Shown: positions 5,018 through 45,986 of the stretch, piece by piece
Layout: the number at the start of each line of letters is the position of its first letter
Position numbering within the stretch: the first letter of the stretch is position 1
NCBI GenBank assembly: GCA_965222075.1
Contig: OZ244937.1
Location: 1,696,001-1,760,000 of the forward strand
Length of the DNA: 64,000 nt
Origin: Candidatus Latescibacterota bacterium
Lineage (GTDB): Bacteria > Latescibacterota > UBA2968 > GCA-2709665
Direction of reading: 5' to 3'
The notes under the pieces: model-generated
What the model saw: the letters and a program-made list of their open reading frames with translations, nothing else
Databases searched by the model: none
Told to the model about the DNA's origin: nothing
Program-made: the position numbers and the translations under genes

Positions 5018-7291
5018 CTACCCTCCCCACCCCAGGGCCGTCGTGGCCTGGTAAGTGACCCATGCGCCGATATAGGCCAGAAGGGTCATATACCCAAACG
5101 CGAACCCCGCCCACCCCCAGGACCGGGTCTCCCGCTGGATCACCGCCAGGGTGGCCGCGCACTGCGCGCACAGCGCAAAAAAGACCATAACCGAAAGGGC
5201 GACGGGAACCGTAAAAATCGGCCGCCCGTCGTCCCACGTCGCCGCCTGCAGGGCGTGCCGAAGTCCCTCCGAGGTCTCATCCACCCCGCTTCCCAGGCTG
5301 TAAATCGTCCCCAGGGACGCCACAACAATCTCCCGGGCCGGAAAAGAAGCAACCGCCGCCATCCCGATGCGCCAGTCCCAGCCGAGGGGGCGCACGACCG
5401 GTTCTATGAAGTGCCCGGCACGGCCCAGAAAACTCTGTTTCAGCAATTCGGAAGACATCCCGGCATCGATCGCGGCCAGTGCCTCTGCCTGCGCCTGCCC
5501 CGCATGGGTGCTCAAAATCTCCTCCTGCCGGGCCTCGTAATTTTCAACAATCCCCGCAGGACGGGGAAAATAGGCCAGCGCCCACATCACAATCGCCGCA
5601 GCCAGGATAATCCTTCCGGCGCGGGACAGAAACGCCTTGCTGCTCTGGTAGACCCGCATGCCCACCGTCTTGGGATCCGGCAGTTTGTAGGACGGAAGCT
5701 CCAGAACGAACGGCGAAGACGCCCCCTTCAGCAGCGTCTTCTTCAGCACCCATGCCACCGGCACCGCCACCCCGATGCCCACGCAGTACATCCCAAACAG
5801 CGTCAGCCCCTGCAGCCCGACCCACCCCCCCAGGAGCATGTGGTCCGGAATAAATGCCGCAATAAAAATGGTGTAAACCGGCAGCCGGGCCGAACAGCTC
5901 ATCAGGGGAGCCACCAGGATCGTCGTAAAACGGTCCCGCCTGTCTTCAATCGTCCGGGTCGCCATAATCCCCGGCACCGCACATGCAAAGCTGGACAGCA
6001 TCGGAATAAACGACTTCCCCGATAGCCCGCACCGGGTCAGCAGCCGATCCATCAAAAAGGCCGCCCGGGCCATATACCCGCCGTCTTCGAGAATCGCAAT
6101 AAAGAAGAAAAGAATGGCAATCTGCGGCAGAAAAATGACCACGCTCCCCACCCCGCCGATGACGCCGTCCACCACCAGACTTTTCAGCGCCCCCCCCGGC
6201 ATCGTCGCCCCCACCCAGGCGCCCAGCCCCCCGAACAGGCCGTCGATCCAGTCCATCAGCGGCCCTGCCCAGGTAAAGATCGACTGGAAGACCAGCCCCA
6301 TCATACCCACAAAGATCAGCGTCCCCAACACCCGGTGCGTCAGCACGCGGTCGAGGCGGTCTGAAAGGATCGTCTGCAGCCGTTCGGGCCGAACAAGACA
6401 GCCCGATATCACCTGGCTGATCCAGGCATACCGGGCTTCGGTCTCCAGCGCCGACAGGGGCGCCTTCGTGTGCACCTTTGAACGCACTTCCAAAAGCCGC
6501 CTGCCAAACGCCGGCCCCTGCGCTTCAACCAACCGCTGTTCGGCATAGCCCCCTTCGTCCACCAGCGCCCGAAAAGCCTCGACCTCGGAGAGCTTCCGAA
6601 CGCGCCCATCCCAGGAGAGCTCCACATCCTGAGCAAGCGTCCTGACCTGACGCCCCAGGGATTCCGGAAAGCGGGGCAGTCCCGCCGGTTCGGCGCTCCG
6701 TTCGCCTGAGACCACATCGGCGATGGCCCTGCGCAGGTCGTCCAGCCCCCGGTGCCGGTTCGCGCAGGTCGGAACCACCGGAACCCCGATCCGCTGAGAA
6801 AGCATCGCCGCATCGATCCGGACGCGCCTGGACGCGGCCACGTCCACCATATTCAACGCAATCACCACCGGCAGGCCCAGTTCCAGAACCTGCGAAACCA
6901 GATAGAGGTTCCGCTGCAGATTGCTGGCATCCACAATCGCCAGCACTACGCTTACCGGGGCCTCGCCCTCCACCTGGCCCATCAGCACATCGGCCACAAT
7001 CATCTCGTCCGGCGAATGCGCCGCCAGGCTGTACGCGCCGGGCAGGTCCAGCAAATCGACCTCCAGGCCGCCCCTCAGCTTCAACCGCCCGACCTTCCGC
7101 TCGACCGTCACGCCCGGATAGTTTCCAACGCGCTGAGAAAGCCCGGTCAGAGCATTAAAAAGCGTCGTCTTACCCGTATTCGGGTTGCCGACCAGGGCAA
7201 CGGTTTGAACCCCCGCACCCGGCGCCTGCCTGCGCAGCGTAGTGCGCTGCAGGCAGGGCTGAATATCGTCCGTCCGTATCTGTGTGGACAT
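5018..7291 (-). CDS. feoB: Ferrous iron transporter B, full length
   Basis: GNPNTGKTT, DLPG, NMVD; membrane motifs FACAVPGIMATR, MSCSARLPVY, QCAATL. Confidence 0.96.
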   Translation of the reverse strand: MSTQIRTDDIQPCLQRTTLRRQAPGAGVQTVALVGNPNTGKTTLFNALTGLSQRVGNYPGVTVERKVGRLKLRGGLEVDLLDLPGAYSLAAHSPDEMIVADVLMGQVEGEAPVSVVLAIVDASNLQRNLYLVSQVLELGLPVVIALNMVDVAASRRVRIDAAMLSQRIGVPVVPTCANRHRGLDDLRRAIADVVSGERSAEPAGLPRFPESLGRQVRTLAQDVELSWDGRVRKLSEVEAFRALVDEGGYAEQRLVEAQGPAFGRRLLEVRSKVHTKAPLSALETEARYAWISQVISGCLVRPERLQTILSDRLDRVLTHRVLGTLIFVGMMGLVFQSIFTWAGPLMDWIDGLFGGLGAWVGATMPGGALKSLVVDGVIGGVGSVVIFLPQIAILFFFIAILEDGGYMARAAFLMDRLLTRCGLSGKSFIPMLSSFACAVPGIMATRTIEDRRDRFTTILVAPLMSCSARLPVYTIFIAAFIPDHMLLGGWVGLQGLTLFGMYCVGIGVAVPVAWVLKKTLLKGASSPFVLELPSYKLPDPKTVGMRVYQSSKAFLSRAGRIILAAAIVMWALAYFPRPAGIVENYEARQEEILSTHAGQAQAEALAAIDAGMSSELLKQSFLGRAGHFIEPVVRPLGWDWRIGMAAVASFPAREIVVASLGTIYSLGSGVDETSEGLRHALQAATWDDGRPIFTVPVALSVMVFFALCAQCAATLAVIQRETRSWGWAGFAFGYMTLLAYIGAWVTYQATTALGWGG
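7225..7257. repeat. 33-nt CCTGCCTG...CAGGCAGG palindrome in frame in the feoB 5' end
   Basis: CCTGCCTGCGCAGCGTAGTGCGCTGCAGGCAGG; removal gives DIQPPGAGVQTVALVG. Confidence 0.85.
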
Positions 7292-7295
7292 CTCT

Positions 7296-7613
7296 CTACA
7301 CCGAACGCACCCGAATCGCGTCGGCGTCTCGCCTCCGGACGCAGAACCGCCCCTCTTCCAACTGGATCACGGTTGGACACCCGGCGCGCAGCACCCGTAC
7401 CCGCGCCCCCGGCACCGCCCCCATTTCCCTCAGCCGGGCCGTCAGGCAACAGGTTCCGGCCACCTCCACGATCTCCCCCTCGTCCCCCTCAGGCCACGCG
7501 GCCAGAGGCCCTTCCGCGGGCCGGTCCCGCCTTCCCGGCTCCGCCGCCCCGTTCCGGCCCCAGAGGAACCGCAGCGTCAGCCAGCCGGCCAGCACTATAA
7601 AACGCTCGGCCAT
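7296..7613 (-). CDS. feoA: FeoA
   Basis: RLREMGAVPGARVRVLRAGCP; immediately upstream of feoB. Confidence 0.85.
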   Translation of the reverse strand: MAERFIVLAGWLTLRFLWGRNGAAEPGRRDRPAEGPLAAWPEGDEGEIVEVAGTCCLTARLREMGAVPGARVRVLRAGCPTVIQLEEGRFCVRRRDADAIRVRSV

Positions 7614-7652
7614 GCCTCAATCTCCCTCCGGAATCCTGTCCCCGGCGTCCTC

Positions 7653-8183
7653 TCAGGCCTCGATCTGCATGTGCAGCAGACATTCATCCTCGCAGATCGG
7701 GCACACTTCCAGGCCGTAACACAGCGCCTCCTCGTTCCGAAACGCCTCCAGGAACTGCCGCGCCATCGGCGTATCCGACAGCAGGAAACTCATAAAATGG
7801 AGCAGCTTCTCCCCGGTCTCCAGGCTCAGGAGGTGTTCGACCTTACAGGCGTCGACCTCCGCCTGCTGTTCCCCCACGTGCAACACATCCTTCAGGAATT
7901 TCCTGACAATCGCCCGTTTGGCCATCACCAGATCCACAATCCGCTGCGCCTCTTCGGACAGCCGCAGGAACTTGTTCTGGTCTTCCAAAACGTAATGCTT
8001 TCGTTTTAAAGCCTTTAGCGTAAGCGAGGCGCTCCCCCTGGTAATATCCAAATACCTCGCCACATCCGAAACCCGGGCGTATCCCTGCCGCTCCGCCAAC
8101 TCGCTGATTGCCGCAAGGTGGTGGGCCACACTGTGGGTAATCTCATTGTCCTCAAACGCTTTCCACACCCCCGAAGATGACAT
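7653..8183 (-). CDS. DtxR/MntR-family regulator with C-terminal 4-Cys motif
   Basis: ARVSDVARYL HTH, DACKVEHLLS; tail CYGLEVCPICEDEC. Confidence 0.88.
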   Translation of the reverse strand: MSSSGVWKAFEDNEITHSVAHHLAAISELAERQGYARVSDVARYLDITRGSASLTLKALKRKHYVLEDQNKFLRLSEEAQRIVDLVMAKRAIVRKFLKDVLHVGEQQAEVDACKVEHLLSLETGEKLLHFMSFLLSDTPMARQFLEAFRNEEALCYGLEVCPICEDECLLHMQIEA

Positions 8184-8222
8184 GGAAGCCCCCTTTCCCC
8201 TACAAAGATGACTGTTTAATCA

Positions 8223-8252
8223 ACCAGATGTTTTGTTAATAAAACATCTGGT
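8223..8252. promoter_or_regulatory. Long palindrome in the leader of dtxR-feoA-feoB (operator or RNA hairpin)
   Basis: ACCAGATGTTTT-GTTAAT-AAAACATCTGGT; minus-strand TTGACA at 8286-8281 and TATATT at 8262-8257 lie upstream. Confidence 0.7.
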
Positions 8253-8408
8253 ATAGAATATAAACAATATCCATCGGACATGTCAAGGGGAATTTGTAAC
8301 AAAGCCGTAACAATCGTCCAGGCGCTGCCTGTGTATTGCCCCCTTGACTTTACCCCGAATTTTTTGTATACCTGTCAATGAATATTTTTCGTTGAGGAGT
8401 TTCCCCCC

Positions 8409-11159
8409 ATGCCTCCAACCTTCGACTTCGATCAAATCGGCCGGCTTCCTGCGTCGAGTGACAACGTGGCCATTGCGACCCGGAAGCTGGATGCGGGCGA
8501 CCGGGTCACCTGTCTGCCTGCTTGCGCGCTGCGCGCAGGCAAGCGTGCTCCGCACAGGCAGGTCTGCAAAAACACGCGCTTCACCCTCAGCCACACCATC
8601 CTGGAAGGGCATCGCTTTGCCGTGCATCCGATTGCCGCTGGTGAGGCCCTCCTCTCCTGGGGCCTGCCCTTTGGCATCGCCACCCGTGCAATCGGGCCGG
8701 GCGACTACGCCTGCAACCCCCAGATCCTTGAAGCCCTCCGCTTGCGAAACCTCGACTTCGAACTCCCCTCCAGGCCCAATTTCCAGGACCGGATCGAACC
8801 CTGCGTGCTGGATGAACAGCGCCTCAAACCGGGGGTGCAGGTCTCTTCCTACCCCCAACCCCGCACCTTTAAAGGCTACCGCCGGGCCCCCTCGCGGGGT
8901 GTGGGCACCCGCAATAACATCGTCATCCTGGGGACCACCTCACGCACCGCCAGCTTCGCCAGACGGCTGGAAGAGCGCCTGAAGGGGCTGTCGGACGCTT
9001 ATGAGAACATCGACAACATCGTCGCCGTCGCCCACACCGAAGGCGGCGGTGGGGAACGTCCCAACAACCTCGACCTCCTGCTGCGCACCCTGGCCGGCTT
9101 TATTGTCCACCCCAATGTGGGAGCGGTGCTGGCGGTCGACTACGGAACCGAACCCCTGACCAACAAAATGCTCCGAACCTGCATGGAAGCAGAGGGCTAC
9201 CCCCTGCGGGAGGTCGTGCACGAATTCTTAACCCTCAAAGGCGGCTTTCAGGAAAACCTGGACATGGGTGAAGCCATCGTCAAGGGGTGGCTCGACACGG
9301 TCAACCGCACCTCCCGCACCGACGAGTCGGCCGCGCACCTGAAAATCGCCCTCCAGTGCGGGGGGTCGGACGCCTTCTCGGGCATCTCCGGCAACCCCCT
9401 CGTCGCCTGGGTCGCCCGGGAAACCATCCGCTACGGAGGGTGCGCCAACCTGGCCGAGACCGATGAACTGATCGGCGCGGAGTCTTACATCCTCCAAAAC
9501 GTCAAAGACCTCGACACGGCCCGGCGGTTTCTGGATACGATACAGCACTACAAAGACCTGGCCGCCTGGCACGGTACTACGGCTGAGGGCAACCCCTCCG
9601 GCGGCAACAAATTCAGGGGGCTTTACAACATCGTTCTCAAATCGATCGGCGCGGCCCAGAAGCGCCATCCGGACATCCGCTTAGACGAAGTCATCGCCTA
9701 CGCCGAACCGATGCGCGCCCCCGGCTACTATTTTATGGACAGCCCTGGAAACGACCTGGAAAGCGTTGCAGGGCAGGTCGCCTCGGGGTGCAACATGATC
9801 TTCTTCGTCACCGGCAACGGCTCCATCACCAACTTCCCCTTTGTGCCCACCCTCAAAATCATCACCACCACCGCCCGCTACGACCTCCTCTCCAACGAAA
9901 TGGACGTCAACGCCGGCGCCTACCTGGACGGCACACCGATGGACGACCTGGGCCGGCAGATGCTGGGCCTCACCTTAGACGTGGCCTCCGGCGCCCTCAG
10001 CAAAGGGGAACGGGCAGGGCACGCCCAGGTCTCCCTCTGGAGAAACTGGCGGCAGACCGACACCCGCGACCTGGAGCGCCTGCTCGCCCTCCCCCGGCCC
10101 GGGGGCGTCCCCATCCCGATCCGGACCGACCCTCGGCACAGCGCCCTGACCTTCAACGCCATCCACACCCCGAAAGGCCCCACGACCGACCGGATCGGCC
10201 TCATCCTGCCCACCAGCCTCTGCTCGGGTCAGATCGCCCGGATGGGCGCCGAACGCCTCACGCAGAAGGGCCTGGGCTGCGCGCAGGGCATCTCCCGCTT
10301 CGTGGCCCTGGCGCACACCGAAGGCTGCGGGGTTGCGGGCGAATCGGCCGAGCGCTTCTACAACCGCACCATGCTCGGCTACCTCACCCACCCCCTCGTC
10401 GCCTGCGGCCTCCTCCTCGAACACGGATGCGAAAAAACCCACAACGACTACATGCGCCACGAGCTTGAAGCCCTCAGCATCGATCCTGCCACCTTCGGCT
10501 GGGCCAGCGTGCAGCTGGACGGCGGCATCGAACGCGTCCTCCAAAAAGTGGAAGCCTGGTTCGCCTCCCAACTCGCCCGTGAAGGCGCCCCTCTTGAAGA
10601 ACCGGCAGGCTTAGACGCCCTCCGCCTGGGCCTGCTCACCTCCGGCCCCCTCTCCGACACCGCAGCCCGGAGCCTGGCCGGGCTCACGCGCACCCTGGTT
10701 GGCGCCGGCGGCACCGTCATCGTCCCCGAAACCGCCGGCCTCCTCGCCTCGCCCCCTTACCTGAAAAGCACGCTTGGAGACCGTCCGCCGGGCGCCTCGC
10801 TGGGCCACGGGCAACGGGCGGAGGCCCCCGGCTTCTACATCATGGAAACCCAGACCGACCACTGGGTGGAAATCCTCACCGGCCTGGGGGCCACCGGCGT
10901 CGAAATCCTCCTGGCACACACCGCAGAACACCCCATGCAGGGCCACCCTCTCCTGCCCATGCTCCAGGTCACCGCCTCAACGCGGGCCGTCTACGGCGGC
11001 GACATCGATCTCTATCTGGGAGAAAACCCTGCCGAAAACGTCGACGGGATACTCCGCCTGATCCTGAGCGTCGCCTCCCGGACCTGTACGCCCAGGGCCA
11101 ATATTCAGGGCAACACCGATTTCCAGTTTACCCGGGGGCTGCTGGGCGTTTCGATGTAG
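8409..11159 (+). CDS. UxaA/GarD-family sugar-acid dehydratase, internally duplicated (916 aa)
   Basis: SAF domain DNVAIA..GHRFA; GVGTRN, QCGGSD, GNPSGGN, TGNGS; second copy with HTEGCG and HGCEK. Confidence 0.88.
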   Translation: MPPTFDFDQIGRLPASSDNVAIATRKLDAGDRVTCLPACALRAGKRAPHRQVCKNTRFTLSHTILEGHRFAVHPIAAGEALLSWGLPFGIATRAIGPGDYACNPQILEALRLRNLDFELPSRPNFQDRIEPCVLDEQRLKPGVQVSSYPQPRTFKGYRRAPSRGVGTRNNIVILGTTSRTASFARRLEERLKGLSDAYENIDNIVAVAHTEGGGGERPNNLDLLLRTLAGFIVHPNVGAVLAVDYGTEPLTNKMLRTCMEAEGYPLREVVHEFLTLKGGFQENLDMGEAIVKGWLDTVNRTSRTDESAAHLKIALQCGGSDAFSGISGNPLVAWVARETIRYGGCANLAETDELIGAESYILQNVKDLDTARRFLDTIQHYKDLAAWHGTTAEGNPSGGNKFRGLYNIVLKSIGAAQKRHPDIRLDEVIAYAEPMRAPGYYFMDSPGNDLESVAGQVASGCNMIFFVTGNGSITNFPFVPTLKIITTTARYDLLSNEMDVNAGAYLDGTPMDDLGRQMLGLTLDVASGALSKGERAGHAQVSLWRNWRQTDTRDLERLLALPRPGGVPIPIRTDPRHSALTFNAIHTPKGPTTDRIGLILPTSLCSGQIARMGAERLTQKGLGCAQGISRFVALAHTEGCGVAGESAERFYNRTMLGYLTHPLVACGLLLEHGCEKTHNDYMRHELEALSIDPATFGWASVQLDGGIERVLQKVEAWFASQLAREGAPLEEPAGLDALRLGLLTSGPLSDTAARSLAGLTRTLVGAGGTVIVPETAGLLASPPYLKSTLGDRPPGASLGHGQRAEAPGFYIMETQTDHWVEILTGLGATGVEILLAHTAEHPMQGHPLLPMLQVTASTRAVYGGDIDLYLGENPAENVDGILRLILSVASRTCTPRANIQGNTDFQFTRGLLGVSM
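8509..8562. repeat. Two nested 27-nt palindromes in frame in the uxaA-like gene
   Basis: CCTGTCTG[CCTGCTTGCGCGCTGCGCGCAGGCAAG]CGTGCTCCGCACAGGCAGG; removing 54 nt gives DRVICKNTRFTLSH. Confidence 0.88.
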
Positions 11160-11252
11160 ATCTGAAATTCCAATGGACCTGCACATTACTTTTCACCTGA
11201 CTTTTTGGTGAGCATTGTCTATATTTATTCTAACTGAAGATAATGTGACAGA

Positions 11253-11282
11253 AGTAATACTGTTACTGATAATACGCTTACC
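11253..11282. promoter_or_regulatory. Tandem palindromic operator of the TA pair
   Basis: AGTAA-TACTG-TTACT followed by a degenerate copy GATAATACGCTTACC. Confidence 0.5.
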
Positions 11283-11292
11283 AGGGAGACAC

Positions 11293-11523
11293 ATGATGCG
11301 AGTGACAACCAAAGGTCAGGTGACCATACCTCAACATATACGGGAAAAAATGGGAATTACATCAGATACCGAGGTTGAATTTATAGAAGAAGAAAAACGC
11401 GTCTATCTGGTCAAAAAAACGTCACCTGTCCCGAAAAACAGCAGATTTCGGCGTTTCCGGGGGATTGCCACGGTCAAGATGTCCACCGATGAAATTCTGG
11501 CTTTAACCAGGAGCGATGAGTGA
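11293..11523 (+). CDS. vapB: AbrB/MazE-type antitoxin
   Basis: MRVTTKGQVTIPQHIREKMGI; start moved to ATG 11293; overlaps PIN gene. Confidence 0.88.
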   Translation: MMRVTTKGQVTIPQHIREKMGITSDTEVEFIEEEKRVYLVKKTSPVPKNSRFRRFRGIATVKMSTDEILALTRSDE

Positions 11524-11930
11524 CCGGGGTACTTGTTGATTCCAGCGTCATACTGGACGTGTTTGAAGACGACCCGAATTGGGCCGACTGGTCTGAATCC
11601 ACGCTATACCGCCATAGCATGACAGGCCCGCTGTATGTCAATCCCATTATATATTCGGAAGTCTCTATAGGCTTTGCACGTATTGAAGAATTGGAAGCGT
11701 CAATCACCGGATGTGGTCTTCAAATTATAGAGATGCCTAAAGAAGCCCTCTTTCTTGCGGGCAAGGCATTTGTCAACTACAGAAGACGCGGAGGCGCGAA
11801 AACATCTCTGTTACCGGACTTTTTCATCGGTGCGCACGCTGCGGTTGCCGGATTGAAGCTCCTGACCAGAGATACATCGCGGGTCAAAACCTATTTTCCA
11901 ACGGTTGAGTTGATTTCTCCACAGACATAA
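11520..11930 (+). CDS. vapC: PIN-domain toxin
   Basis: VLVDSSVILD, YSE, PDFFIGAHA, LLTRD. Confidence 0.92.
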   Translation: MTGVLVDSSVILDVFEDDPNWADWSESTLYRHSMTGPLYVNPIIYSEVSIGFARIEELEASITGCGLQIIEMPKEALFLAGKAFVNYRRRGGAKTSLLPDFFIGAHAAVAGLKLLTRDTSRVKTYFPTVELISPQT

Positions 11931-16180: not shown

Positions 16181-16868
16181 ATTTCTAATAGACCGTTTGT
16201 TATGATGGATTATTTTTTTATCAGAAAATGATTGTCTGAAAATTGATTATTCTTGAGAGGCTAATCTCGCATCAGGGCGTTCCGGGATCGCAGGTTGCAG
16301 ATGTTTGACATGAGGGGGACACACCATGTGGAGTACCGTCGTGGGACGGCTCTTTCCGGTAATCGTCGACGGTCTTATCTCCGCTTGCTCGCTTGCGAGG
16401 GACTCGACCGCAGTCCGAACAGAGCGCGCGGTTCCGTCGACCGCCCAACATCGATATCCACCTTCGCTGGCAGGGCGAAAGATTCTGTGGATACGTCAGA
16501 GATATTCGCGCTGTGCATATCGACGGCGCCGCGCGAGAAATCCCTTGTTCCGGTTGACGAAATCGAATATACTCATGTTCGCCCTTTTGTCGCCTCCAAC
16601 CCGCCGCGATGCGCCCATCTCGTTGGGTTCGAACGTGTCGCTCTTTTACCCTGCGCAATCGCCGCGTCTTTTGTACAGTAGTTGTCATGCGCCCTTTGGG
16701 GCACCCATTAGGATGAAAATAGCTGCCTGCAGACTTGTGCTGTAACCGTACACGCCCTCTCACGCATCTCGCCGTGCGATCCCCCCACCGGCGCGCCTGC
16801 GGGCTGGCGCCCCGCAACCAAGGGGGGAGTAATGGTGGCCACGGTGAATTTGCTGCAGCCGTCGCCTG

Positions 16869-16946
16869 GTGGGCAACCACGAGGGTTGCCCCTACAAATG
16901 CAACGGCGTGGACAACCACGAGGGGTGCCCACGCAAATGCTGCGGG
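16869..16946 (-). repeat. Two tandem 39-nt units carrying a GTAG-type REP hairpin
   Basis: Minus strand GTAG-GGGCAACC-CTCGT-GGTTGCCC; second unit degenerate. Confidence 0.75.
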
Positions 16947-17079
16947 GCGGAAGGGGCTTTTCCGCGCAGATCCCCCAAGCACTTCGCCCAAAAACGCCCC
17001 AAAGGTCCGCTGGGCACAACCGCCTGCTGCCACCACAGGGTCAGTTCGCGGAAAAGCAGCCCCCGCGGCGTTTGAGCGG

Positions 17080-17136
17080 CCTGCCTGCAGCGCGGTGCGC
17101 CGGCCTGTGCGTCGCACGCAGACAGGCCCAGGCAGG
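17080..17136. repeat. Nested palindromes (27 nt inside 30 nt), intergenic
   Basis: CCTGCCTGCAGCGCGGTGCG[CCGGCCTGTGCGTCGCACGCAGACAGG]CCCAGGCAGG; inner reverse complement is 24/27 identical to the outer uxaA element. Confidence 0.85.
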
Positions 17137-17197
17137 CGCGGCCTTTTTCCTGGGCGAGCAACGAACGTCAACCTGCCGCCACCTCCTCCGCCTTTCT

Positions 17198-17235
17198 CCC
17201 CCTTTCCTCTCAGGAAAGGGGGCCGGGGGGATAGG
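17198..17235. repeat. GC-rich hairpin of a third type
   Basis: CCCCCTTTCCT-CTC-AGGAAAGGGGG (11-bp perfect stem) plus CCGGGGGGATAGG. Confidence 0.55.
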
Positions 17236-17343
17236 TCACTATACCGCAACACATCCACCGGGTTCGCCCGCGCCGCACGGACCGCTTAAACCCAATAAAA
17301 ACAACAAGTTCGGTTGCAATCTGAAAGGTTATTTTCTAAGTAG

Positions 17344-28734: not shown

Positions 28735-28755
28735 CCTTACCGGTCGGCAGGCAGG
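28735..28755. repeat. 21-nt degenerate copy of the CCTGCCTG palindrome family
   Basis: Minus strand CCTGCCTGCCGACCGGTAAGG; first 14 nt shared with the copy at 45523-45546. Confidence 0.6.
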
Positions 28756-33264: not shown

Positions 33265-33265
33265 T

Positions 33266-39301: not shown

Positions 39302-39913
39302 TTACTTGCCGCCCGGATTCTCGGCCGTCTTCATCCCGGCGGCCTCGATATTCAGAGAAACCTTGATCTCATCTCCCAACATGCCAGCCTTATCCACCCA
39401 GTTATTCACCCCGAAATCCGACCGTTTAACCGTCAATTCGGCGGCAAACCCTGCCACGGGGGCCTTCGACATGGGATGGGTGCCTACCCCCAGGACTTCA
39501 ATGGGCAGGACCGCACGCCTGGTGACCCCGTGCATGGTCAGGTCGCCGGTAACCATCAGCTTCTCGTCCTGCTTCTTCGCCCCAGTACTCTTGAAGGTGA
39601 TCTGGGGATACTTCTCCGCATCGAAAAAATCGGCGCTCCTGAGGTGGTTGTCCCGTCTCTCATTGTTGGTATTGATGCTTGCAACCTTGATGGTCGCCTC
39701 AACCGAAGACGTCTCAGGATGATTCGGATCGTACATAATGGTGCCGGAAAAATCCGTGAACGACCCACCAACACGACTGAAGATGTGGCGAATGGTAAAC
39801 CCGACCGAGGAATGCACCGTATCGATACTGTAGGTATCGGCAGCGCCCGTACCTGCCAGAAGGAAAACGGCCAGAACCCCGATACCCAGCGAACGCATAT
39901 ATCTTGCAAACAT
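39302..39913 (-). CDS. yceI: YceI-family protein
   Basis: Signal peptide; IDTVHSSVGF, RDNHLRSADFFD, GDLTMHGVT, KRSDFG. Confidence 0.93.
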   Translation of the reverse strand: MFARYMRSLGIGVLAVFLLAGTGAADTYSIDTVHSSVGFTIRHIFSRVGGSFTDFSGTIMYDPNHPETSSVEATIKVASINTNNERRDNHLRSADFFDAEKYPQITFKSTGAKKQDEKLMVTGDLTMHGVTRRAVLPIEVLGVGTHPMSKAPVAGFAAELTVKRSDFGVNNWVDKAGMLGDEIKVSLNIEAAGMKTAENPGGK

Positions 39914-40085
39914 ACTGCTTCCCCCCTATGTTGGTTAGACAGAGTGCCCGTATGCTCTGCCGGTGTGAATTTGAAGCGGGCGTCCACGCAATATATACCC
40001 CTGAACTCGTGAGATCAACACATATCTATCCGTGGGCGTATCAAGACGCAATCCGCTTCACCACAACTGACGACTCCCTGATTTT

Positions 40086-43000
40086 TCACCATTCCATCTT
40101 CCAGAAAAGCCCCAGGGACTTCCGGTCCCGTTCCTGCTCGTTCCCCACCCTCTGCTGCGCCTCCAGCGTAACCTGCGGCAGCAGCTCGTACTCCACGATC
40201 ACCTCCTGTCCCCTTGCCGAGGAAATATCCTGCGCATAGCTGATGAAGAACCTGGACCCGAAATACTTTCCCACCCGCACCCGGGTAGCCGAGTTCTCCC
40301 GGCCCAGGTCGATCTCCACAACGTCCAAGTTCAACCGCCGGCCGATCGTCCGCTTGAGCTGGTTCGCAGCCACACCCAGCACAAGGCCTGCGGCCTGCCC
40401 TTCCAGGCTGCGCCCGCCGCCGCCTTCCCCGCGCAAAAATCCCGACATTTCTTCGGCCGGCCTTCCGACGATCAGATAAGAGAGCAGGTCCGCTTCGGAC
40501 AGAGGAGGGGTGGTATCGCTCTCCAGGGTAATCTGGGGATTCAGCAGCGTTCCGCCCACGATCACGCTGATCACCGCAGGCTCGTTGGAAACCAGTATCA
40601 CCCTGTGTGTACCCAAAATGTAGAGATCGGGGTTGATATCCGCATTTCCCTGGAACTGGAGTTCTCCACGGTCGATGTTAAAACTCGTATTCTGAAACTC
40701 GTAGCGTCCCTGCCGGCTGTCCAGAGCCCCGTAAATCCGAACCCCCTCCCGGTCTTTGACCAGATCCACATCCCCGGAAATCTCAATATTGAGATCCCTG
40801 TCCCGGATCCAGACATTTCGAGAGGCCGACACCCGAATATTGCAACCCAGATTCTGGATAAAACGAGACGTCACCCAGAAATCGTGGGTCGGCGTCTCGA
40901 TAAAATCCGACAGCCTGAGCACCGCGCGGGTCAACCCTGCCTTGCCTTCCACCCGGGACGCCTCCGGATTCCCCCTCAGGTGGAGGTCGGCCCGCAGGGT
41001 CGCGTTGAGTTCAGGCAGGTTGATCGCCTCAAAATCCTCTGCCTGCAGCGCAATATCAAAATCCTGAACACCAAAACCCTCAACAGCGTGCTGGTCCAGC
41101 CTCACCTCACCGCTGAATGCCAGCCTGCCCTTCCCTTCCCTGGCCTCAAGCTGCTCCAGGACGATCCGGTCCTCAGCAAAGCTCAGCTTTGCCTGAACCT
41201 TCCGGAAGGTCTTGTTCAGGGGCACAATCCGGACGACCCCATCCTGAAGGCGTATCCATCCGCCCTCCTGCAGACGCAAACGCCGGGGGGTGCCTTCCAC
41301 GCTCAGGTCCATCGCCAGCATTCCCCCTGTGTCCCGGACCTCCGAAAACACGGCCTGGAGAAAGCCAGGGTCGATGCCGTCCGCCCTGAGCAACACGCTC
41401 ACGGGCCCTTCGGGAAACAGGTCTTCCCTTCCACCGGGCGACAGATTCAGCGGGAAATACCCCTGCAACACGGCCTCTCGGCCGGGCGACTGCACCAGCT
41501 TCAAATCCACCGCTGCGCGACGATTCCCATAGGCCAGGGTGCCTGAAAAATCCTGAAACCGGACGCCGGCGACAGCGCCGTTCTTCAGTTCCACCTGCGC
41601 CCCGATCTGAGGATCGTCCGGCGTGCCGGACAGGGTGATCTCTCCGGTCAGCACCCCGCTCATCTCACCCCTCAGCCCCAGCAGAAAAGGCCACGTCCGC
41701 AGGTCCACATCCTGCAGCCACACCACCACAGCGCCCGGTTGCCCGGAATGGTCCCGTGCCTCTATCCCGCCGCCGGCCCCGGCCAGCCGGAACTGCTCCA
41801 CATGCACCCCCTCCTGGGGGCTATACCTTACCCGACAGGGGCCGTCGTTAAACAGGGCCATCCGGTCCACCTGAACCGCAAGAGAGTCCAGCTCAAGATA
41901 ATATCCACCCTCCCAGGGCCCGGCCCGGCCCCAGAGATAGACGCGATCGATGTCTTCCGAACTATTCCCCAGCAGAAAGGATATCCCGTCTCCATCCAGG
42001 CCCACATCCAGGAACAGGTCGTGGACCACCCGTCCGCCCCACACAAGAGACCCCACCCGGACGGAAAGGCCTCCCGGCAGGAGAGCAGGCCACCTCATCT
42101 GAAAGGTCACCCTCTGCATCGGGATGCCCTGGTAATTCAGGCTGTCCGCCAACAAATCCACCGCAGCCAGGGGCTTCTCCCAGCTCCCACCGACCCGGAC
42201 AACAAAGGGCGCCGGCGTACCGGAGAGTCCCAACCCCAGCAGGTTGCTCAGCGCCTCGAAATCGTGAACCTGCCCGGTCACGTGGATGTCCAGGCTGTCG
42301 CCCGGCGTCGCCCACCCACGGCCGTCAAAGCGCATCAACGCGCCCGCCAGCATCAGCCGGTCCAGGATCACCCGGCGGCCCTGCAGCACCAGGCTCGCCC
42401 TGGCGCTGTCCAGCTCCCCTCCCAAAAAATCGGGCGCCTCCACCACCAGATCCGCCCGGGCCTGCATCGAATCCGGGTGAAACCCCGCGCCGGCAAGCGA
42501 AATCTGAAACGAAACGTCTCCCCCCAGCCTGGCGTCGCCCGTCAGGCGTTCCAGCGCCAGCCCCTCCAGTTGCAACCCCATCTGATACGTCGGCTGTTTT
42601 CCGCCGGGTCTCCAGAACTGGCCCAGATCCATACGTCCCTTCCCCCGAACCACCCCGTACCCATCCGGCAGTCTCACCCCCAGGCTGTCCAGCCGCACCC
42701 GGCCCCCCCGGGAAGACCCCCGAAGCACGAGTCCGGTTGCCGGGGGCAACCCCTGGATATTCAGGGCGTCAAATCTGGCCTCGCCCTGCCACATACCGGC
42801 CCCCGTCCGCCGCAGCCGGACTTCCCCGGTCAGGTCGGTAACCCTTCCGGACGCTCCTGAAACCCGGGAGAGGTCCAGGTTTGCCAGACGCGCCCTCAGC
42901 GCATAGACCGGAGCCGCCCCCCTCAGGTCAACCTCCAGATTTGCGGCCAGCCCGCCCGCCTCCCCTTCCGCCCTCAGATCCATCACCACCTGTCCACCGT

Positions 43001-44120
43001 TTAACGCCGCCACCAGATTCGCCGTATCCACAGCAGTGCCGAAGAGATACGCACGGGCCATCCCCGCGCTCACCGTCCCCTCGGCGGTCAGTGCATCCAG
43101 GCCCCGTCCCTGCAGCCGAATCACCGTGTCAAACCGGGCGTCCAGGCTCCACTGCGGCCCGATCTGCGCCAGATCCACCCCCCGGCCTTCCGCCTGTACA
43201 TCGTAAACAACGCCCTCCCCGGTAAAATCCACCCGTCCGGACACCGCACAGGTGGTTGACCCGTAGTTGAACCTGAAGTCTCCCCTCATCCCGGAGGCGT
43301 CCCCCCACGCCCGACCCTCAACCGCCACGCTCCCCCGGGGGTAGGTCCCCGGAAAGATCCGGGCCATCTCACCAAACGCCAGGGAATCCGCACGCAGGGC
43401 AAAATCGTACTCCGGCCGGGACAGCCCCGTCATCGTACCATCTATCTGCAGATGGGACCCCGGCGTATGCAGGCGTAGCCCCTTAAGCACCAGTTGTCCG
43501 TCCCGCAGCAGGGTCAGCCCGGCCAGATTCCGAATAACCAGTGGGGGGTCAAAGAGCAGAGACCGGAAACGGCGCAGCGCCAGCTCATACCCCTTCGGAC
43601 CGGCCTGAAATCCCACGACCACATTCAGGCTGTCCACCCGGCCTTCGGTGCCCCACAGGTAACCTCCATCCACAACCTCTGCGTGGCCAATATGGATCTT
43701 CCACTCCGGACCCCCTGTCCACCGGTCAGGATCGGCCGCGGCCAAAACCCCTGCGGCCCAATCTGCCCCACCCGTCGCTTCCCGGAAGCGCACCCTGGGG
43801 GCACGAAAACGGAGCGTATCCACAATCACGGCTCCCCACAGCAACCCCAGCAGCCGGTACTGGACATCCAGAGCATCCAGAACCAGCAGCGGTTCCGGCC
43901 CCTCGCCAAGGCGCACCCGGTCCATTCGCAACCCTGCCAGGGGGTTGCCCTGCAGGCTGCCGATCTCCACGGCCATGCCCAGGCGCCGGGAAAGCCGCCC
44001 CTCCGCATAGTCCCGCAGATAGGGGTTCACCCACCCCGATCCCAGCACCAGCAGCCCGATCCCGCCTCCCACGGCCCCCACGGCCAGGAGGAGGACAAGT
44101 ATTTTAACAACAGGTCTCAT
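40086..44120 (-). CDS. tamB: TamB/AsmA-like protein
   Basis: N-terminal anchor, long beta-rich body, C-terminal DLLSYLIVGR...VGKYF; follows an Omp85 gene. Confidence 0.88.
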   Translation of the reverse strand: MRPVVKILVLLLAVGAVGGGIGLLVLGSGWVNPYLRDYAEGRLSRRLGMAVEIGSLQGNPLAGLRMDRVRLGEGPEPLLVLDALDVQYRLLGLLWGAVIVDTLRFRAPRVRFREATGGADWAAGVLAAADPDRWTGGPEWKIHIGHAEVVDGGYLWGTEGRVDSLNVVVGFQAGPKGYELALRRFRSLLFDPPLVIRNLAGLTLLRDGQLVLKGLRLHTPGSHLQIDGTMTGLSRPEYDFALRADSLAFGEMARIFPGTYPRGSVAVEGRAWGDASGMRGDFRFNYGSTTCAVSGRVDFTGEGVVYDVQAEGRGVDLAQIGPQWSLDARFDTVIRLQGRGLDALTAEGTVSAGMARAYLFGTAVDTANLVAALNGGQVVMDLRAEGEAGGLAANLEVDLRGAAPVYALRARLANLDLSRVSGASGRVTDLTGEVRLRRTGAGMWQGEARFDALNIQGLPPATGLVLRGSSRGGRVRLDSLGVRLPDGYGVVRGKGRMDLGQFWRPGGKQPTYQMGLQLEGLALERLTGDARLGGDVSFQISLAGAGFHPDSMQARADLVVEAPDFLGGELDSARASLVLQGRRVILDRLMLAGALMRFDGRGWATPGDSLDIHVTGQVHDFEALSNLLGLGLSGTPAPFVVRVGGSWEKPLAAVDLLADSLNYQGIPMQRVTFQMRWPALLPGGLSVRVGSLVWGGRVVHDLFLDVGLDGDGISFLLGNSSEDIDRVYLWGRAGPWEGGYYLELDSLAVQVDRMALFNDGPCRVRYSPQEGVHVEQFRLAGAGGGIEARDHSGQPGAVVVWLQDVDLRTWPFLLGLRGEMSGVLTGEITLSGTPDDPQIGAQVELKNGAVAGVRFQDFSGTLAYGNRRAAVDLKLVQSPGREAVLQGYFPLNLSPGGREDLFPEGPVSVLLRADGIDPGFLQAVFSEVRDTGGMLAMDLSVEGTPRRLRLQEGGWIRLQDGVVRIVPLNKTFRKVQAKLSFAEDRIVLEQLEAREGKGRLAFSGEVRLDQHAVEGFGVQDFDIALQAEDFEAINLPELNATLRADLHLRGNPEASRVEGKAGLTRAVLRLSDFIETPTHDFWVTSRFIQNLGCNIRVSASRNVWIRDRDLNIEISGDVDLVKDREGVRIYGALDSRQGRYEFQNTSFNIDRGELQFQGNADINPDLYILGTHRVILVSNEPAVISVIVGGTLLNPQITLESDTTPPLSEADLLSYLIVGRPAEEMSGFLRGEGGGGRSLEGQAAGLVLGVAANQLKRTIGRRLNLDVVEIDLGRENSATRVRVGKYFGSRFFISYAQDISSARGQEVIVEYELLPQVTLEAQQRVGNEQERDRKSLGLFWKMEW

Positions 44121-44159
44121 AAGGAAATGCGATCCAACCCCAAAGCCACCCGCTATGCT

Positions 44160-45986
44160 TCAAAACGCCTGTCCCAGGCTGAAATAAATCCGCCTGTGGG
44201 GCACGAACCGGTCTTCGGAGAGCCGGTATGCAACATCGATCCGCAGGGGGCTGATGGGGCTCAAATAGCGCACCCCGGCGCCTGCGGCCAGCTGCAACTC
44301 GCCCGGTTTGAAGGCCCCGAACCGATCCGATCCGACATTGCCCGCATCCAGGAACACGGCCATCCCCAACACGGGCAGCAGCCGGGTGCGCAGCTCGATG
44401 CTTCCCTCCAGCAGGCTCCGCCCGCCCACCGGATTGCCGGATGCGTCCCGGGGGCTCAGCTGGTTCAGGCGCCATCCCCGCACGCTGTTCGCCCCACCCG
44501 CGAAAAACCGCTCGAAATTGGGGATCGCCTTCGCCGTCCCCAGGCTCAGGATCATCCCTCCCGAAACCCTGAAGGCCAGCACGTTTTTCCGGAATACCTT
44601 CCGGTACCAGCGCCCTTCACCCGTCAGCTTGAGGAAATCCCCAACCCCCGACGCCTTCATCGCAAGCGAAGCCAGCAGTCCCCGCTGGGGATCGAAGAAA
44701 TCGTCCCGGGTATCTTCCATGTAGTCGATCAAAAAATTGGTGCGGGTGCTGTCAACCTTGAAGTCAACCAGTTCGGTCCGCACCTGAAAAACAATTCTGC
44801 CCGTGGCCCTGAACGTCCGTTCCAAAGACACGCTACCCCCTGCCCGCTTCACCCGGATCTCCTCAGGACGTTCCTGCTCTACAAACCCCACCACGTCCAG
44901 CCAGGTCTTGCTCCCAAAAATGTAGGGCTGCCGCAGGCCGATCTTCCCATGGGCTTCCAGGGCCGACGCTTCGGACTCGATGGTCAGCTGCCGTGCGCCC
45001 CCCCCCAGGAAATTCCGGTGCCGCCAGGCCAGCAACCCGCGCACCTGCTCCTCCGTATCGTATCCCGCCCCCAGCTTCAGGCTCCGGGGCGGGCGCTCGC
45101 GCACCAGAACGGCCACGTCCACAGGGCTTGTCTGAGCGGCGGTGTCCGGCAGACTCAGTGAAACCGACCGAAACACCCCCGACCGGTAGAGCTGACGCCG
45201 GCTGTTTAAGAGGTCCCGCTTCCGGTAGGCCTCCCCCTCCCGAAAGGTCAGGCCCCGCCGGATCAGCCCTTTGGAAACCTTCCGGTTGCCCTCGACCCGC
45301 ACCTGTCCGAACCGGCATTTTGGCCCTGGCCTGGCCCGAAACGTCACGTCTGCCCGGCGGGCCTGCCGGGTTACGGGGGCCGCAACCTCGGCAAAGGCGT
45401 AGCCGCTGTCCTGAAGCCGGCCGGCAATGAGGTTCAGATCCGCCTCCCGGCCGACCCGGGTCAGTGGCCGACCCGGTTTGGTGCTCAGCGCCTCCCGGAG
45501 GTGCAGGCTGTCCAACGCGGCACCTGCCGGCAGGTCGGCAGGCAGGCCTTCCAGCCGGACGCTGAAAACCAGCACAGGCTCTCCCTCTTCAATGCGGATC
45601 CGGATGCGCACAAACCCGGGGCGGTACCGGTTGATCACCGTATCTACAACCGCGTCAAAATAGCCCAGGTCTTTGTAACGCGCAACAACCCGCGCAACAT
45701 CGGATCGAAACACGGCCGGATCGAACCGCCGGGGCTTTACACCCGGAAATATCGTGTACCACCGGCTCACCCGGGTATGCATCAGCAGCTTGAGATCTCC
45801 CCTGGAAAGGACACGATTTCCTTCAATCGTAATCGCTTCAACAACAGGAGGCTCGGCCTCCTGCCTGCCTGCCGAGTCGCCTGCCTGCGCCGAGTTCTGC
45901 TCGGCAGGCAGGGCGCAGGCAGGTCCAAAAAGGGTAAAGGGAATACCCAGGAAGACCATGGGAACGAAAATTCTGAGCAGAATCAA
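44160..45986 (-). CDS. tamA: Omp85 family (TamA/BamA-like) outer membrane protein
   Basis: POTRA repeats, FFAGGANSVRGW, C-terminal YFSLGQAF. Confidence 0.9.
   Translation of the reverse strand: MILLRIFVPMVFLGIPFTLFGPACALPAEQNSAQAGDSAGRQEAEPPVVEAITIEGNRVLSRGDLKLLMHTRVSRWYTIFPGVKPRRFDPAVFRSDVARVVARYKDLGYFDAVVDTVINRYRPGFVRIRIRIEEGEPVLVFSVRLEGLPADLPAGAALDSLHLREALSTKPGRPLTRVGREADLNLIAGRLQDSGYAFAEVAAPVTRQARRADVTFRARPGPKCRFGQVRVEGNRKVSKGLIRRGLTFREGEAYRKRDLLNSRRQLYRSGVFRSVSLSLPDTAAQTSPVDVAVLVRERPPRSLKLGAGYDTEEQVRGLLAWRHRNFLGGGARQLTIESEASALEAHGKIGLRQPYIFGSKTWLDVVGFVEQERPEEIRVKRAGGSVSLERTFRATGRIVFQVRTELVDFKVDSTRTNFLIDYMEDTRDDFFDPQRGLLASLAMKASGVGDFLKLTGEGRWYRKVFRKNVLAFRVSGGMILSLGTAKAIPNFERFFAGGANSVRGWRLNQLSPRDASGNPVGGRSLLEGSIELRTRLLPVLGMAVFLDAGNVGSDRFGAFKPGELQLAAGAGVRYLSPISPLRIDVAYRLSEDRFVPHRRIYFSLGQAF
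45523..45546. repeat. 24-nt palindrome-family copy in frame in a POTRA loop
   Basis: CCTGCCGGCAGGTCGGCAGGCAGG encodes LPADLPAG; removal gives LEGAALDSL. Confidence 0.65.
45864..45923. repeat. Nested palindromes (33 nt inside 27 nt) in frame after the tamA signal peptide
   Basis: CCTGCCTGCCGAGTCG[CCTGCCTGCGCCGAGTTCTGCTCGGCAGGCAGG]GCGCAGGCAGG; removal gives TLFG-QEAEPP. Confidence 0.9.

What the first reader, a model, noticed from the sequence alone, without database searches (positions are those of the whole stretch)
7225..45923. Family of short frame-preserving palindromes that invade genes and nest inside each other
Seen: nine copies with CCTGYCTG...CAGRCAGG-like arms and variable cores at six loci (7225, 8509 x2, 17080 x2, 28735, 45523, 45864 x2). 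Lengths are 33, 27+27, 30+27, 21, 24, 27+33: all multiples of 3, including the intergenic ones. Four sites lie in open genes, all near N-termini or in probable loops. No target duplication is visible. Three loci are one copy inside another. Known: REP/RAYT hairpins are mostly intergenic; Rickettsia RPEs insert in frame but are much longer. Inference: a non-autonomous micro-element mobilised in trans that favours its own hairpin as target and adds 7-20-aa peptides. No mobilising enzyme is in this window.
Basis: partly seen in the sequence, partly recalled or inferred. Interest (0 to 1): 0.85.

Follow-up and report, generated by a model that had tools for sequence, protein, structure and literature searches.

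The report
Tiny mobile hairpins inserted inside genes
A family of about 250 hairpin-forming DNA repeats, 19 to 36 bases long, has recently and precisely inserted itself between and inside the genes of this bacterium, mostly without breaking reading frames; it is an unusual relative of the known REP repeats, and the enzyme that moves it is not identified.

Summary
The genome (one contig, 5.36 Mb, 59% G+C) has 294 matches to CCTGYCTG-N(0-80)-CAGRCAGG, against 0-1 in simulated genomes. These reduce to 251 minimal hairpins, mostly 33 or 27 nt long.

103 of the 251 lie inside predicted genes, and 91 of those 103 have lengths divisible by 3. Density is still 9 times lower in coding than in non-coding DNA.

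At 8 of 8 alignable sites the same-genus genome G001 lacks the element. At 5 of those sites the flanks join cleanly, with no target duplication. Insertion prefers R^YNKG. It recurs at the same point of two larger repeat families and inside other copies.

Copy number in 140 genomes of the phylum runs from 0 to 292, with sequences also found in G000 present in distant families.

The architecture is that of "long-hairpin" REPs: a 9-bp stem, a 2-nt bulge, an inner stem and a loop. There is no GTAG or CGTC tag, and no RAYT gene is flanked by these hairpins.

In-frame REPs inside genes are already published (PMC3733652). I therefore rate this a new variant of a known kind. The mobilising enzyme is unidentified.

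The parts
7225..7257 (.). 33-nt hairpin element (perfect-arm type) in codons 12-22 of FeoB, upstream of the G domain
   Evidence: DNA fold -15.4 kcal/mol, z -3.4. G001 lacks exactly these 33 nt; the empty site is CCGGCG^GCTGA.
8509..8562 (+). 54-nt composite: a 27-nt T/C-arm element (8509-8516 plus 8544-8562) carrying a 27-nt CCTGCTTG..CAGGCAAG element (8517-8543). It encodes TCLPACALRAGKRAPHRQV inside the N-terminal domain of the UxaA-like dehydratase.
   Evidence: The 18 residues are absent from 6 of 6 aligned orthologues. The G001 DNA joins GGATCA^TCCAC.
45864..45923 (.). 60-nt composite: a 27-mer (45864-45879 plus 45913-45923) carrying a 33-mer (45880-45912). It is translated on the minus strand as the linker after the Omp85/BamA signal peptide.
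   Evidence: G001 joins CTCCTG^TCCAAA. The same 60-nt composite lies at genome position 1823859 in another gene.
17080..17137 (.). Degenerate nested pair: a 33-mer type interrupted by a truncated 27-mer type, in non-coding DNA
   Evidence: It occupies the GAGCGG^CGCCC hot spot of the ~130-nt repeat.
16951..17079 (+). Body of a ~130-nt dispersed repeat (about 48 copies in the genome) whose GAGCGG^CGCCC site is a recurrent insertion point
   Evidence: 11 of 35 copies are filled and 24 are empty. Filled copies are scattered on the tree.
45523..45546 (.). Look-alike in BamA between POTRA domains; not a canonical copy
   Evidence: G001 differs by a 12-nt indel and already has GGCAGG. The 5' arm carries a mismatch.
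28735..28755 (.). Half-site holding only a GGCAGGCAGG arm
   Evidence: There is no G001 counterpart. It is not matched by the strict pattern.
5018..7291 (-). Host gene: FeoB
   Evidence: Pfam FeoB_N 1.3e-57, Gate, FeoB_C
8409..11159 (+). Host gene: fused altronate/galactarate dehydratase-like protein
   Evidence: Pfam GD_AH_C 1e-83, GD_AH_second. Orthologues found in 31 of 31 relatives searched.
44160..45986 (-). Host gene: Omp85/BamA-like protein
   Evidence: Pfam Omp85 1.6e-47, POTRA

Best explanation
These are REP-like miniature mobile elements. Each is a single imperfect hairpin of 19-36 nt. It has a conserved 9-bp outer stem (CCTGYCTGC/GCAGRCAGG), a 2-nt bulge on one side, a freely varying but self-complementary inner stem, and a 3-5-nt loop.

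Shown here:
- They are inserted precisely and without target duplication.
- Insertion falls mostly between a purine and a pyrimidine, in front of a YNKG tetranucleotide (TCGG is commonest). That tetranucleotide is already present in empty sites.
- Because their own arms are built of YCTG units, they also land in one another and at arm-like sequences of other repeats.
- Composites formed this way then spread as units.
- Copies that land in genes persist almost only when their length is a multiple of 3 and the site tolerates 9-23 extra residues. Frame-breaking copies are found nearly only outside genes or at gene ends.

Inferred, not shown:
- Movement needs a protein supplied in trans that recognises the conserved stem and bulge.
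- My leading candidate is an HUH single-strand DNA enzyme of the Y1 transposase/RAYT kind. It would cut next to a flanking tetranucleotide that resembles the element's own terminal CAGG, as IS200/IS605 and REP systems do.
For: **Family and chance.** 294 matches against 0, 1 and 0 in simulations. The reverse-order control gives 30. About 640 matches appear with one mismatch allowed per arm, against 98 simulated.

**Insertion polymorphism.** 8 of 8 alignable G000 sites lack the element in G001; 5 of them join cleanly without duplication. 24 of the 32 elements examined had no G001 counterpart.

**Paralogous empty and filled sites.** 24 copies of one repeat family are empty and 11 are filled at the same position. 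Filled copies are scattered on the tree: 11 changes, at least 3 forced by well-supported branches, and no clustering.

**A second hot spot.** A second repeat family carries four or more different element variants at the same point.

**Target motif.** For the 91 T/C-arm copies, position -1 is R in 83, +1 is Y in 86 and +4 is G in 75. TCGG or TCC is present in the empty sites.

**Structure.** Outer stem, 2-nt bulge and inner stem are predicted on both strands, with z from -2.0 to -4.7. This matches the 'long hairpin' REP description in PMC6006769 (passage).

**Selection in genes.** 91 of 103 genic copies against 104 of 143 intergenic copies are multiples of 3 (Fisher p = 0.004). In the interior of well-supported genes the figure is 39 of 42.

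**Patchy spread.** Copy number is 0-292 among 140 genomes of the phylum. It is 50 or more in 9 genomes. Element sequences also present in G000 occur in other families.

**Hint for RAYT.** In family f1, 8 of 8 genomes with 50 or more copies have a RAYT-like hit, against 4 of 10 genomes with 6 or fewer.
Against: - **No cognate enzyme was found.** The G000 RAYT-like genes are not flanked by these hairpins, nor are any of 80 related loci.
- **The RAYT-like orthologue does not track copy number.** Close orthologues of the 255-aa RAYT-like gene occur in only 3 of the 9 genomes with 50 or more copies (G000, G009, G058). They also occur in low-copy G012 and G017.
- **G021 is an exception.** It has 133 copies but no RAYT-like hit, and only broken IS200-like fragments.
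- **Pfam Y1_Tnp hits do not track copy number**.
- **No REP tag.** There is no GT[AG]G guide at the foot of the hairpin.
- **No strand bias.** Orientation relative to replication is 118:94 (p = 0.11). The IS200/IS605 single-strand mechanism would predict a bias.
- **The flanking tetranucleotide is degenerate.**
- **The RAYT association is weak evidence.** The genomes compared are related to one another, and the hits belong to different paralogues.
Confidence: 0.55

Rival explanations
1. The hairpins are mobile, but the enzyme is not an HUH/RAYT protein. It would be a recombinase or nuclease not yet recognised, for example a tyrosine or serine recombinase acting on folded single strands as integron integrases act on attC. 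It would recognise the conserved stem and bulge and insert at R^Y next to arm-like sequence.
For: - The same point of two repeat families is hit repeatedly.
- There is no duplication at the junctions.
- There is no replication-strand bias.
- G021 has 133 copies without any RAYT-like gene.
- No element flanks any RAYT-like gene.
Against: - No candidate gene was found.
- Genes flanked on both sides by elements are unrelated to one another: a sigma factor, NtrC-like regulators, a serpin, a methylase and IS remnants (20 ORFs scanned).
- The hairpin architecture is that of REPs, whose known partners are RAYTs (PMC6006769).
Confidence: 0.2
2. No dedicated enzyme exists. Copies spread by replication or repair template switching. 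A nascent strand leaves its template at R^Y, anneals by a few bases to an existing copy, copies the hairpin, and returns through the shared YNKG microhomology.
For: - There is no target duplication.
- Donor-like flanks (position -1 R, then YNKG) are present in empty sites.
- Composites are copied as units.
- Truncated and partly deleted copies exist.
- No mobilising gene was found.
Against: - The outer stem and bulge are conserved while the inner stem varies freely with compensating changes. This pattern is expected for protein recognition, not for template switching.
- Copy number varies from 0 to 292 within one genus. That is hard to explain by a general replication error.
- Boundaries are exact at CCTG...CAGG at 5 of the 8 compared sites; the other 3 differ at or next to the junction or rest on a paralogous copy.
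Confidence: 0.15
3. The hairpins are not selfish. They are host-selected motifs, such as protein-binding sites or signals for RNA stability or termination, kept similar by selection and gene conversion. Their presence in genes would be incidental.
For: - REPs in other bacteria bind IHF, gyrase and Pol I and stabilise mRNA (PMC6006769, passage).
- Density is 9 times higher between genes than within them.
Against: - 8 of 8 alignable sites are empty in the sister genome.
- Whole genomes of the same genus have 0-6 copies.
- Copies sit in IS remnants and in an island absent from G001.
- No Rfam family matches.
Confidence: 0.05

Closest known systems
REP elements and REPINs mobilised by RAYT (TnpA-REP), including the intragenic REPs described by Di Nocera et al. 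2013 (PMC3733652) and the 'long hairpin' REPs of Quentin et al. 2018 (PMC6006769)
   Same: - Imperfect palindromes of 20-40 nt, in hundreds of copies.
- A basal stem, a 1-3-nt bulge, a second stem and a loop.
- Subfamilies with compensating stem changes.
- Patchy distribution between related genomes.
- Mostly intergenic, with a minority inside genes, in frame, encoding about 10-30 residues.
   Different: - No GT[AG]G or CGTC tag.
- No RAYT gene flanked by them.
- Mostly single units, not inverted doublets: only 32 of 250 gaps between neighbours are 150 nt or less.
- A high share of copies inside genes (41%).
- The dominant lengths are 27, 30, 33 and 36 nt.
- Frequent nesting.
Rickettsia palindromic elements (RPE)
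   Same: Palindromic repeats inserted in frame into functional genes (as summarised in PMC3733652, passage).
   Different: From recall, the classic RPE-1 is about 100-150 bp. According to the PMC3733652 passages, the short RPE-4 and RPE-6 are CGTC-tagged REPs. The present family has different arms and occurs in a different phylum.
Small dispersed repeats (SDR) of Nostocaceae cyanobacteria (Elhai et al. 2008, Genome Res 18:1484)
   Same: From recall, and from one sentence in PMC5861425: very small (21-27 nt) mobile repeats, some palindromic, that insert into other short repeats and into one another. Their enzyme is unknown.
   Different: The sequences and the phylum are different. I could not read the paper because it is not held, so the details are recalled, not checked.
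IS200/IS605 family and their derived hairpin MITEs
   Same: Insertion without target duplication next to a short tetranucleotide that resembles the element's own terminal tetranucleotide, with hairpin ends that carry a bulge.
   Different: Here there is a single hairpin only, no transposase gene, a degenerate target and no replication-strand bias.

Membership tests
REP/RAYT (REPtron) system | Short (about 20-65 nt) imperfect palindromes in many dispersed copies | tested here: met
   251 strict copies of 19-67 nt, with modes at 33 and 27 nt. Hairpin folds are predicted.
REP/RAYT (REPtron) system | Conserved GT[AG]G guide tetranucleotide at the 5' foot of the hairpin | tested here: not met
   The flanks are R|CCTG...CAGG|YNKG. 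No GTAG or GTGG is present. The flanking tetranucleotide already exists in empty sites.
REP/RAYT (REPtron) system | A cognate RAYT gene flanked by copies of the same REP | tested here: not met
   The G000 RAYT-like loci at 3.242 and 1.858 Mb have no such hairpins nearby. None of 80 related loci holds a full element. RAYT-like genes in G003, G001 and G018 are flanked by a different hairpin, GCAGACATTCCTGTCTGC, which shares only a 9-mer with these arms and is absent from G000.
REP/RAYT (REPtron) system | Predominantly extragenic location | tested here: inconclusive
   Density is 205 per Mb in non-coding DNA against 22 per Mb in coding DNA. Even so, 103 of 251 copies lie inside predicted genes. 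The gene calls come from my own crude finder.
REPIN (inverted REP doublets) | Two REPs in inverted orientation at a fixed short distance, acting as the replicating unit | tested here: not met
   Only 32 of 250 gaps between successive copies are 150 nt or less, and their distances vary.
CGTC-tagged REPs (Di Nocera 2013) | Terminal CGTC tag, an 8-9-bp stem and a 4-5-nt loop | tested here: not met
   No CGTC is present at either end. Like the CGTC REPs, this family lacks an associated transposase (PMC3733652 abstract).
MITE (transposase-derived, TIR plus target duplication) | Terminal inverted repeats with a target-site duplication; 70-300 bp | tested here: not met
   No duplication at the 5 cleanly joined empty sites; sizes are 19-36 nt.
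IS200/IS605-type single-strand transposition | Insertion next to a fixed tetra- or pentanucleotide, no duplication, and orientation tied to the lagging-strand template | tested here: inconclusive
   No duplication and a one-sided YNKG preference are met. The motif is degenerate, and orientation against replication is 118:94, p = 0.11.
Small dispersed repeats (SDR, cyanobacteria) | Repeats of 21-27 nt that nest in each other; Nostocaceae only | not testable with these tools
   The paper is not held. Only a citation and one descriptive sentence were seen.

The most novel reading that the evidence does not exclude
This would be a lineage of selfish hairpins shaped for living inside coding sequence. 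The successful masters are 27, 30, 33 or 36 nt long. Their arms, as given in the calls, contain no TAA, TAG or TGA in any reading frame on either strand (my reading of the sequence). The preferred reading gives a bland xLPA...QAG linker. They would be moved by an enzyme that is not a classical RAYT, possibly a new class acting on folded single strands, that homes to arm-like sequence and can hit the same site again and again. They would be a natural generator of short peptide insertions in proteins across a candidate phylum.
Probability: 0.2. Interest if true: 0.75.

Novelty: new variant of a known kind. Interest (0 to 1): 0.55.

Why it matters
REP-like repeats are among the commonest bacterial repeats, yet how they move is known only for the GTAG class and its RAYT. 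This family has several features that make it useful for study.

- **Recent activity is clear.** Sites are empty in a sister genome that is 91-94% identical.
- **There is a measurable target preference**, with repeated hits at the same position.
- **41% of copies lie inside genes.**
- **There is no recognisable partner enzyme.**

That combination makes it a good system for two questions. One is what mobilises 'orphan' REPs. The other is how often such elements add short peptides to proteins such as FeoB, BamA and a sugar-acid dehydratase.

It also matters in practice. Copies inside genes can be mistaken for assembly errors or can mislead gene calling. Related repeats break short-read assemblies: many G001 matches to the ~130-nt repeat lie at contig ends.

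Tried and rejected
- **RAYT as the cognate enzyme.** Pfam Y1_Tnp hits across 31 genomes do not track copy number. The intact IS200-like tnpA of G000 has its own unrelated end hairpins. The 255-aa RAYT-like gene scores 55.6 bits on NF047646, below the cut-off of 80. No family hairpins lie beside it, or beside any of 80 relatives. Its close orthologues are in only 3 of the 9 high-copy genomes.
- **Genes flanked on both sides by elements.** There were 32 such ORFs, of which I scanned 20. They are unrelated genes and IS remnants, with no candidate enzyme.
- **Replication-strand and gene-strand bias.** Neither is significant.
- **Element-dense regions as a source of empty sites.** This failed because the regions are absent from G001.
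- **Viral carriers.** The rest look like chance hairpins.
- **Rfam.** It found nothing at the sites; the only hit in the window is a tRNA.
- **Structure of the UxaA N-terminus with the insert.** Mean pLDDT was 36.6, which is unusable, so 'in a loop' rests only on the alignment.
- **Literature search for the arm sequence.** It returned only primer-like hits. A search for Poribacteria plus 'palindromic' returned 31 papers, of which 12 were listed. Judging from the listed titles and the starts of their abstracts, none concerns a dispersed hairpin repeat family.

Full report
**What is there.**
- The window lies in a single-contig genome of 5,360,005 bp with 59.3% G+C.
- GCAGGCAGG is the second most common 9-mer in the genome, with 246 copies; its complement has 233.
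The same arms in reverse order match 30 times.
- Three first-order Markov genomes gave 0, 1 and 0 matches.
- The window has 4 strict matches against 0.01 expected.
- After removing outer matches that merely enclose another left arm, 251 minimal elements remain. Lengths peak at 33 nt (93 copies), 27 (50), 30 (19), 25 (17) and 36 (13).
- With one mismatch allowed per arm there are 640 matches against 98 in a simulated genome. The family including decayed copies is therefore roughly twice as large.

**Anatomy.** Three arm types occur.
- Perfect arms, CCTGCCTGC...GCAGGCAGG: 133 copies.
- Arms with a fixed T·G mismatch, CCTGTCTGC...GCAGGCAGG, which gives the element a direction: 58 copies in one orientation and 56 in the other.
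- A 27-mer with arms CCTGCTTG...CAGGCAAG, found at 19 loci.

All fold as a 9-bp outer stem, a 2-nt bulge on one side, an inner stem of 4-8 bp and a loop of 3-5 nt. The folding z-scores run from -2.0 to -4.7. There are 132 distinct sequences. The outer stem is constant, while the inner stem varies and stays self-complementary. This is the 'long hairpin' REP architecture described in PMC6006769 (passage read).

**The elements are insertions.**
- The same-genus genome G001 is 91-94% identical in DNA and has only 24 copies.
- I searched six 20-kb regions of G000 against G001. Of the 32 elements in them, 24 had no G001 counterpart, largely because the element-dense regions are missing from G001. 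One of these is a 16.5-kb island.
- All 8 alignable sites lack the element in G001. The joins are:
  - FeoB: CCGGCG^GCTGA
  - UxaA-like: GGATCA^TCCAC
  - BamA: CTCCTG^TCCAAA
  - genome 1823859: GGCG^TCCC
  - genome 1816880: ^TCGG, with the base before the insertion differing
  - genome 1826664: GTGTA^TCGGTC
  - genome 2055206: a 31-mer, net gain 28 nt
  - the 17080 locus, compared with a paralogous repeat copy
- Five of these joins are clean. No target duplication is seen.
- At protein level, 6 of 6 aligned UxaA orthologues lack the 18 inserted residues.
- Going the other way, I examined 13 G001 element loci.
  - One is shared with G000.
  - One shares the site but has a 27-mer where G000 has a 42-nt composite remnant.
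  - One is a hot spot with different content in the two genomes.
  - One is an unrelated terminator-like hairpin.
  - Three aligned only to paralogous or diverged G000 sequence and are uninformative.
  - Five have no two-sided G000 match.
  - One duplicates a neighbouring locus.

**Where they go.**
- For the 91 oriented T/C-arm copies, the base before the element is a purine in 83, the base after is a pyrimidine in 86, and position +4 is G in 75. TCGG, TCTG, CCTG and CGCG are the common right flanks.
- TCGG or TCC is already present in the empty G001 sites. This is therefore a target preference, not part of the element.
- The motif resembles the YCTG units of the arms themselves. That explains nesting.
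  - The 27-mer with CTTG arms is inside another element at 15 of 19 loci, at three different host positions.
  - The same 60-nt composite lies at two unrelated loci, so composites also move as units.
- Two larger repeat families act as hot spots.
  - In the ~130-nt repeat that includes window 16951-17079, 11 of 35 copies carry the same 33-mer at GAGCGG^CGCCC and 24 are empty.
  - On a tree of 34 repeat bodies the filled state needs 11 changes, at least 3 of them forced by well-supported branches, and it is not clustered at all.
  - A near-identical sister pair differs only by the hairpin.
  - A second repeat carries 27-, 28-, 33- and 34-mers of different subfamilies at the same point, and empty copies exist as well.
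  - Repeated insertion, precise excision and gene conversion could each produce this pattern. I could not separate them.

**Genes and reading frame.**
- My own codon-usage gene finder,868 genes covering 86.6% of the genome. It is crude.
- 103 elements lie wholly in genes, 143 between genes and 5 overlap a gene end.
- Density is 22 per Mb of coding DNA against 205 per Mb of non-coding DNA. Genes are under-populated, not favoured.
- Lengths divisible by 3 account for 91 of 103 genic copies and 104 of 143 intergenic copies (Fisher p = 0.004).
- In the interior (5-95%) of genes of at least 300 aa with strong coding scores there are 42 elements in 37 genes. 39 of them are multiples of 3.
- Genic copies are enriched in the first and last tenths of genes: 21 and 15, against 7-11 in the other tenths.
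- One frame is preferred: 47 copies against 23 and 21 (p = 0.001), reading xLPA...QAG. This could reflect selection on the peptide, or the codon phase of the GA^TC-like target. I could not separate the two.
- At copy level the rule of three is strong: 98 of 132 distinct sequences.
- The number of independent length classes is small, and 19- and 25-mers also exist, almost all of them outside genes. Family-level adaptation to coding sequence is therefore suggestive, not shown.

**Distribution.**
- Record titles of related loci name Candidatus Poribacteria and Latescibacterota MAGs.
- Among 140 genomes of the phylum that are at least 85% complete, 71 have at least one match.
- Only 9 have 50 or more copies. 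Eight are in the window's family (248, 292, 258, 164, 139, 106, 89 and 66 copies) and one is in a sister family (G021, 133 copies).
- Genomes of the same genus range from 0 to 292 copies.
- Canonical 27-mers identical to G000's occur in G034, a family related only at phylum level.
- This pattern indicates bursts, and probably horizontal spread or very strong sequence constraint.

**The enzyme.**
- None is in the window.
- G000 has one intact IS200-like tnpA with its own unrelated ends, two broken ones, and RAYT-like genes at 3.242 and 1.858 Mb. One broken tnpA lies beside a 25-mer and the other is split by a 33-mer.
- None of these genes is flanked by the family, and neither is any of 80 related loci.
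- Close orthologues (70-82% identity) of the 255-aa RAYT-like gene are in G009, G058, G012 and G017, the last as a pseudogene. They are not in G003, G059, G060, G002, G018 or G021.
- In family f1, some RAYT-like gene is present in 8 of 8 high-copy genomes and in 4 of 10 low-copy genomes. These are different paralogues in related genomes.
- G021 has none.
- RAYT-like genes of G003, G001 and G018 are flanked by GCAGACATTCCTGTCTGC hairpins. These share the 9-mer of the arms but close the loop on the opposite side, and they are absent from G000.
- There is no replication-strand bias: 118 against 94.
- I therefore hold the HUH/RAYT mechanism as the leading inference only.

**Comparison with what is known.**
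- In-frame REPs inside genes, encoding roughly 10-30 residues, are described for Opitutus terrae, Rickettsia conorii, Thauera and other species. The same paper reports CGTC-tagged REPs as lacking a transposase (PMC3733652, abstract and passages).
- REPs inserted in frame inside RAYT genes are described in PMC6006769. I saw the same for a GTAG REP in G009.
- Nested very small repeats (SDR) in cyanobacteria are known to me from recall. The paper is not held.
- The new points here are: a different arm family without a GTAG or CGTC tag, in a candidate phylum; a high genic share; dominant lengths in steps of 3; repeated hits at identical sites; and the lack of a cognate RAYT.

**Verdict.** It is a new variant of a known kind, not a new category.

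Noticed in passing
window 16951-17079 (the repeat extends to about 16700-17250): A dispersed ~130-nt repeat with about 48 copies in G000 and about 60 hits in G001. Many of the G001 hits are at contig ends, so the repeat breaks short-read assemblies. Its nature (MITE, IS end or RNA gene) is unknown.
   Followed up: partly
G000 genome, e.g. 2554028, 2319434, 3988229, 4359890 (outside the window): A second dispersed repeat, ...GAGACGATCCGGTGAGCCGGAGRCRGG^CGTTAGCCAATCGTCCGG. Its marked point holds different hairpin subfamilies in different copies and is empty in others.
   Followed up: partly
L030 (G009:C7) 1529-2131 and 4897-5499; G000 1857.9-1859.4 kb (L044): RAYT-like genes carry a GTAG-type REP in frame inside the gene and another beside it. 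In G000 the RAYT-like gene is tandemly repeated in units of about 565 nt, with a similar insert.
   Followed up: partly
G000 611230-611458 (outside the window): A remnant of an IS200-like tnpA is split by a 33-mer of the family. Another broken tnpA at 3018501-3018743 has a 25-mer 150 nt upstream.
   Followed up: partly
G000 2820315-2836792 (L125): A 16.5-kb stretch absent from G001 between otherwise contiguous flanks. It is dense in elements and includes a UPF0236-type transposase gene that carries hairpins. A second copy of that transposase at 3464 kb has the same inserts.
   Followed up: partly
G002:C2:164-170 kb, G003:C1:3070-3072 kb, G059:C1:4548 kb, G060:C1:1912 kb: Open frames of 1,200-1,441 aa contain a RAYT-like Y1 domain, in four genomes with 89-258 hairpin copies. 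No counterpart was found in G000.
   Followed up: no
G098 (whole genome): 55 matches to the backwards control pattern, i.e. a different palindrome family with arms GGACRGAC...GTCYGTCC.
   Followed up: no
G000 genome-wide: A CRISPR-like repeat beginning GTTTCAATCCTTGTTCTGGTGGAAGTATTGCCCTGG dominates the list of commonest 12-mers, with about 90 copies.
   Followed up: no
L256, L257 (IMG/VR contigs): Two viral contigs carry canonical 33-mers of the family, one of them identical to a G000 copy. They may be viruses or proviruses of related hosts.
   Followed up: no
window 56520-56592: A tRNA gene, the only Rfam match in the window.
   Followed up: no
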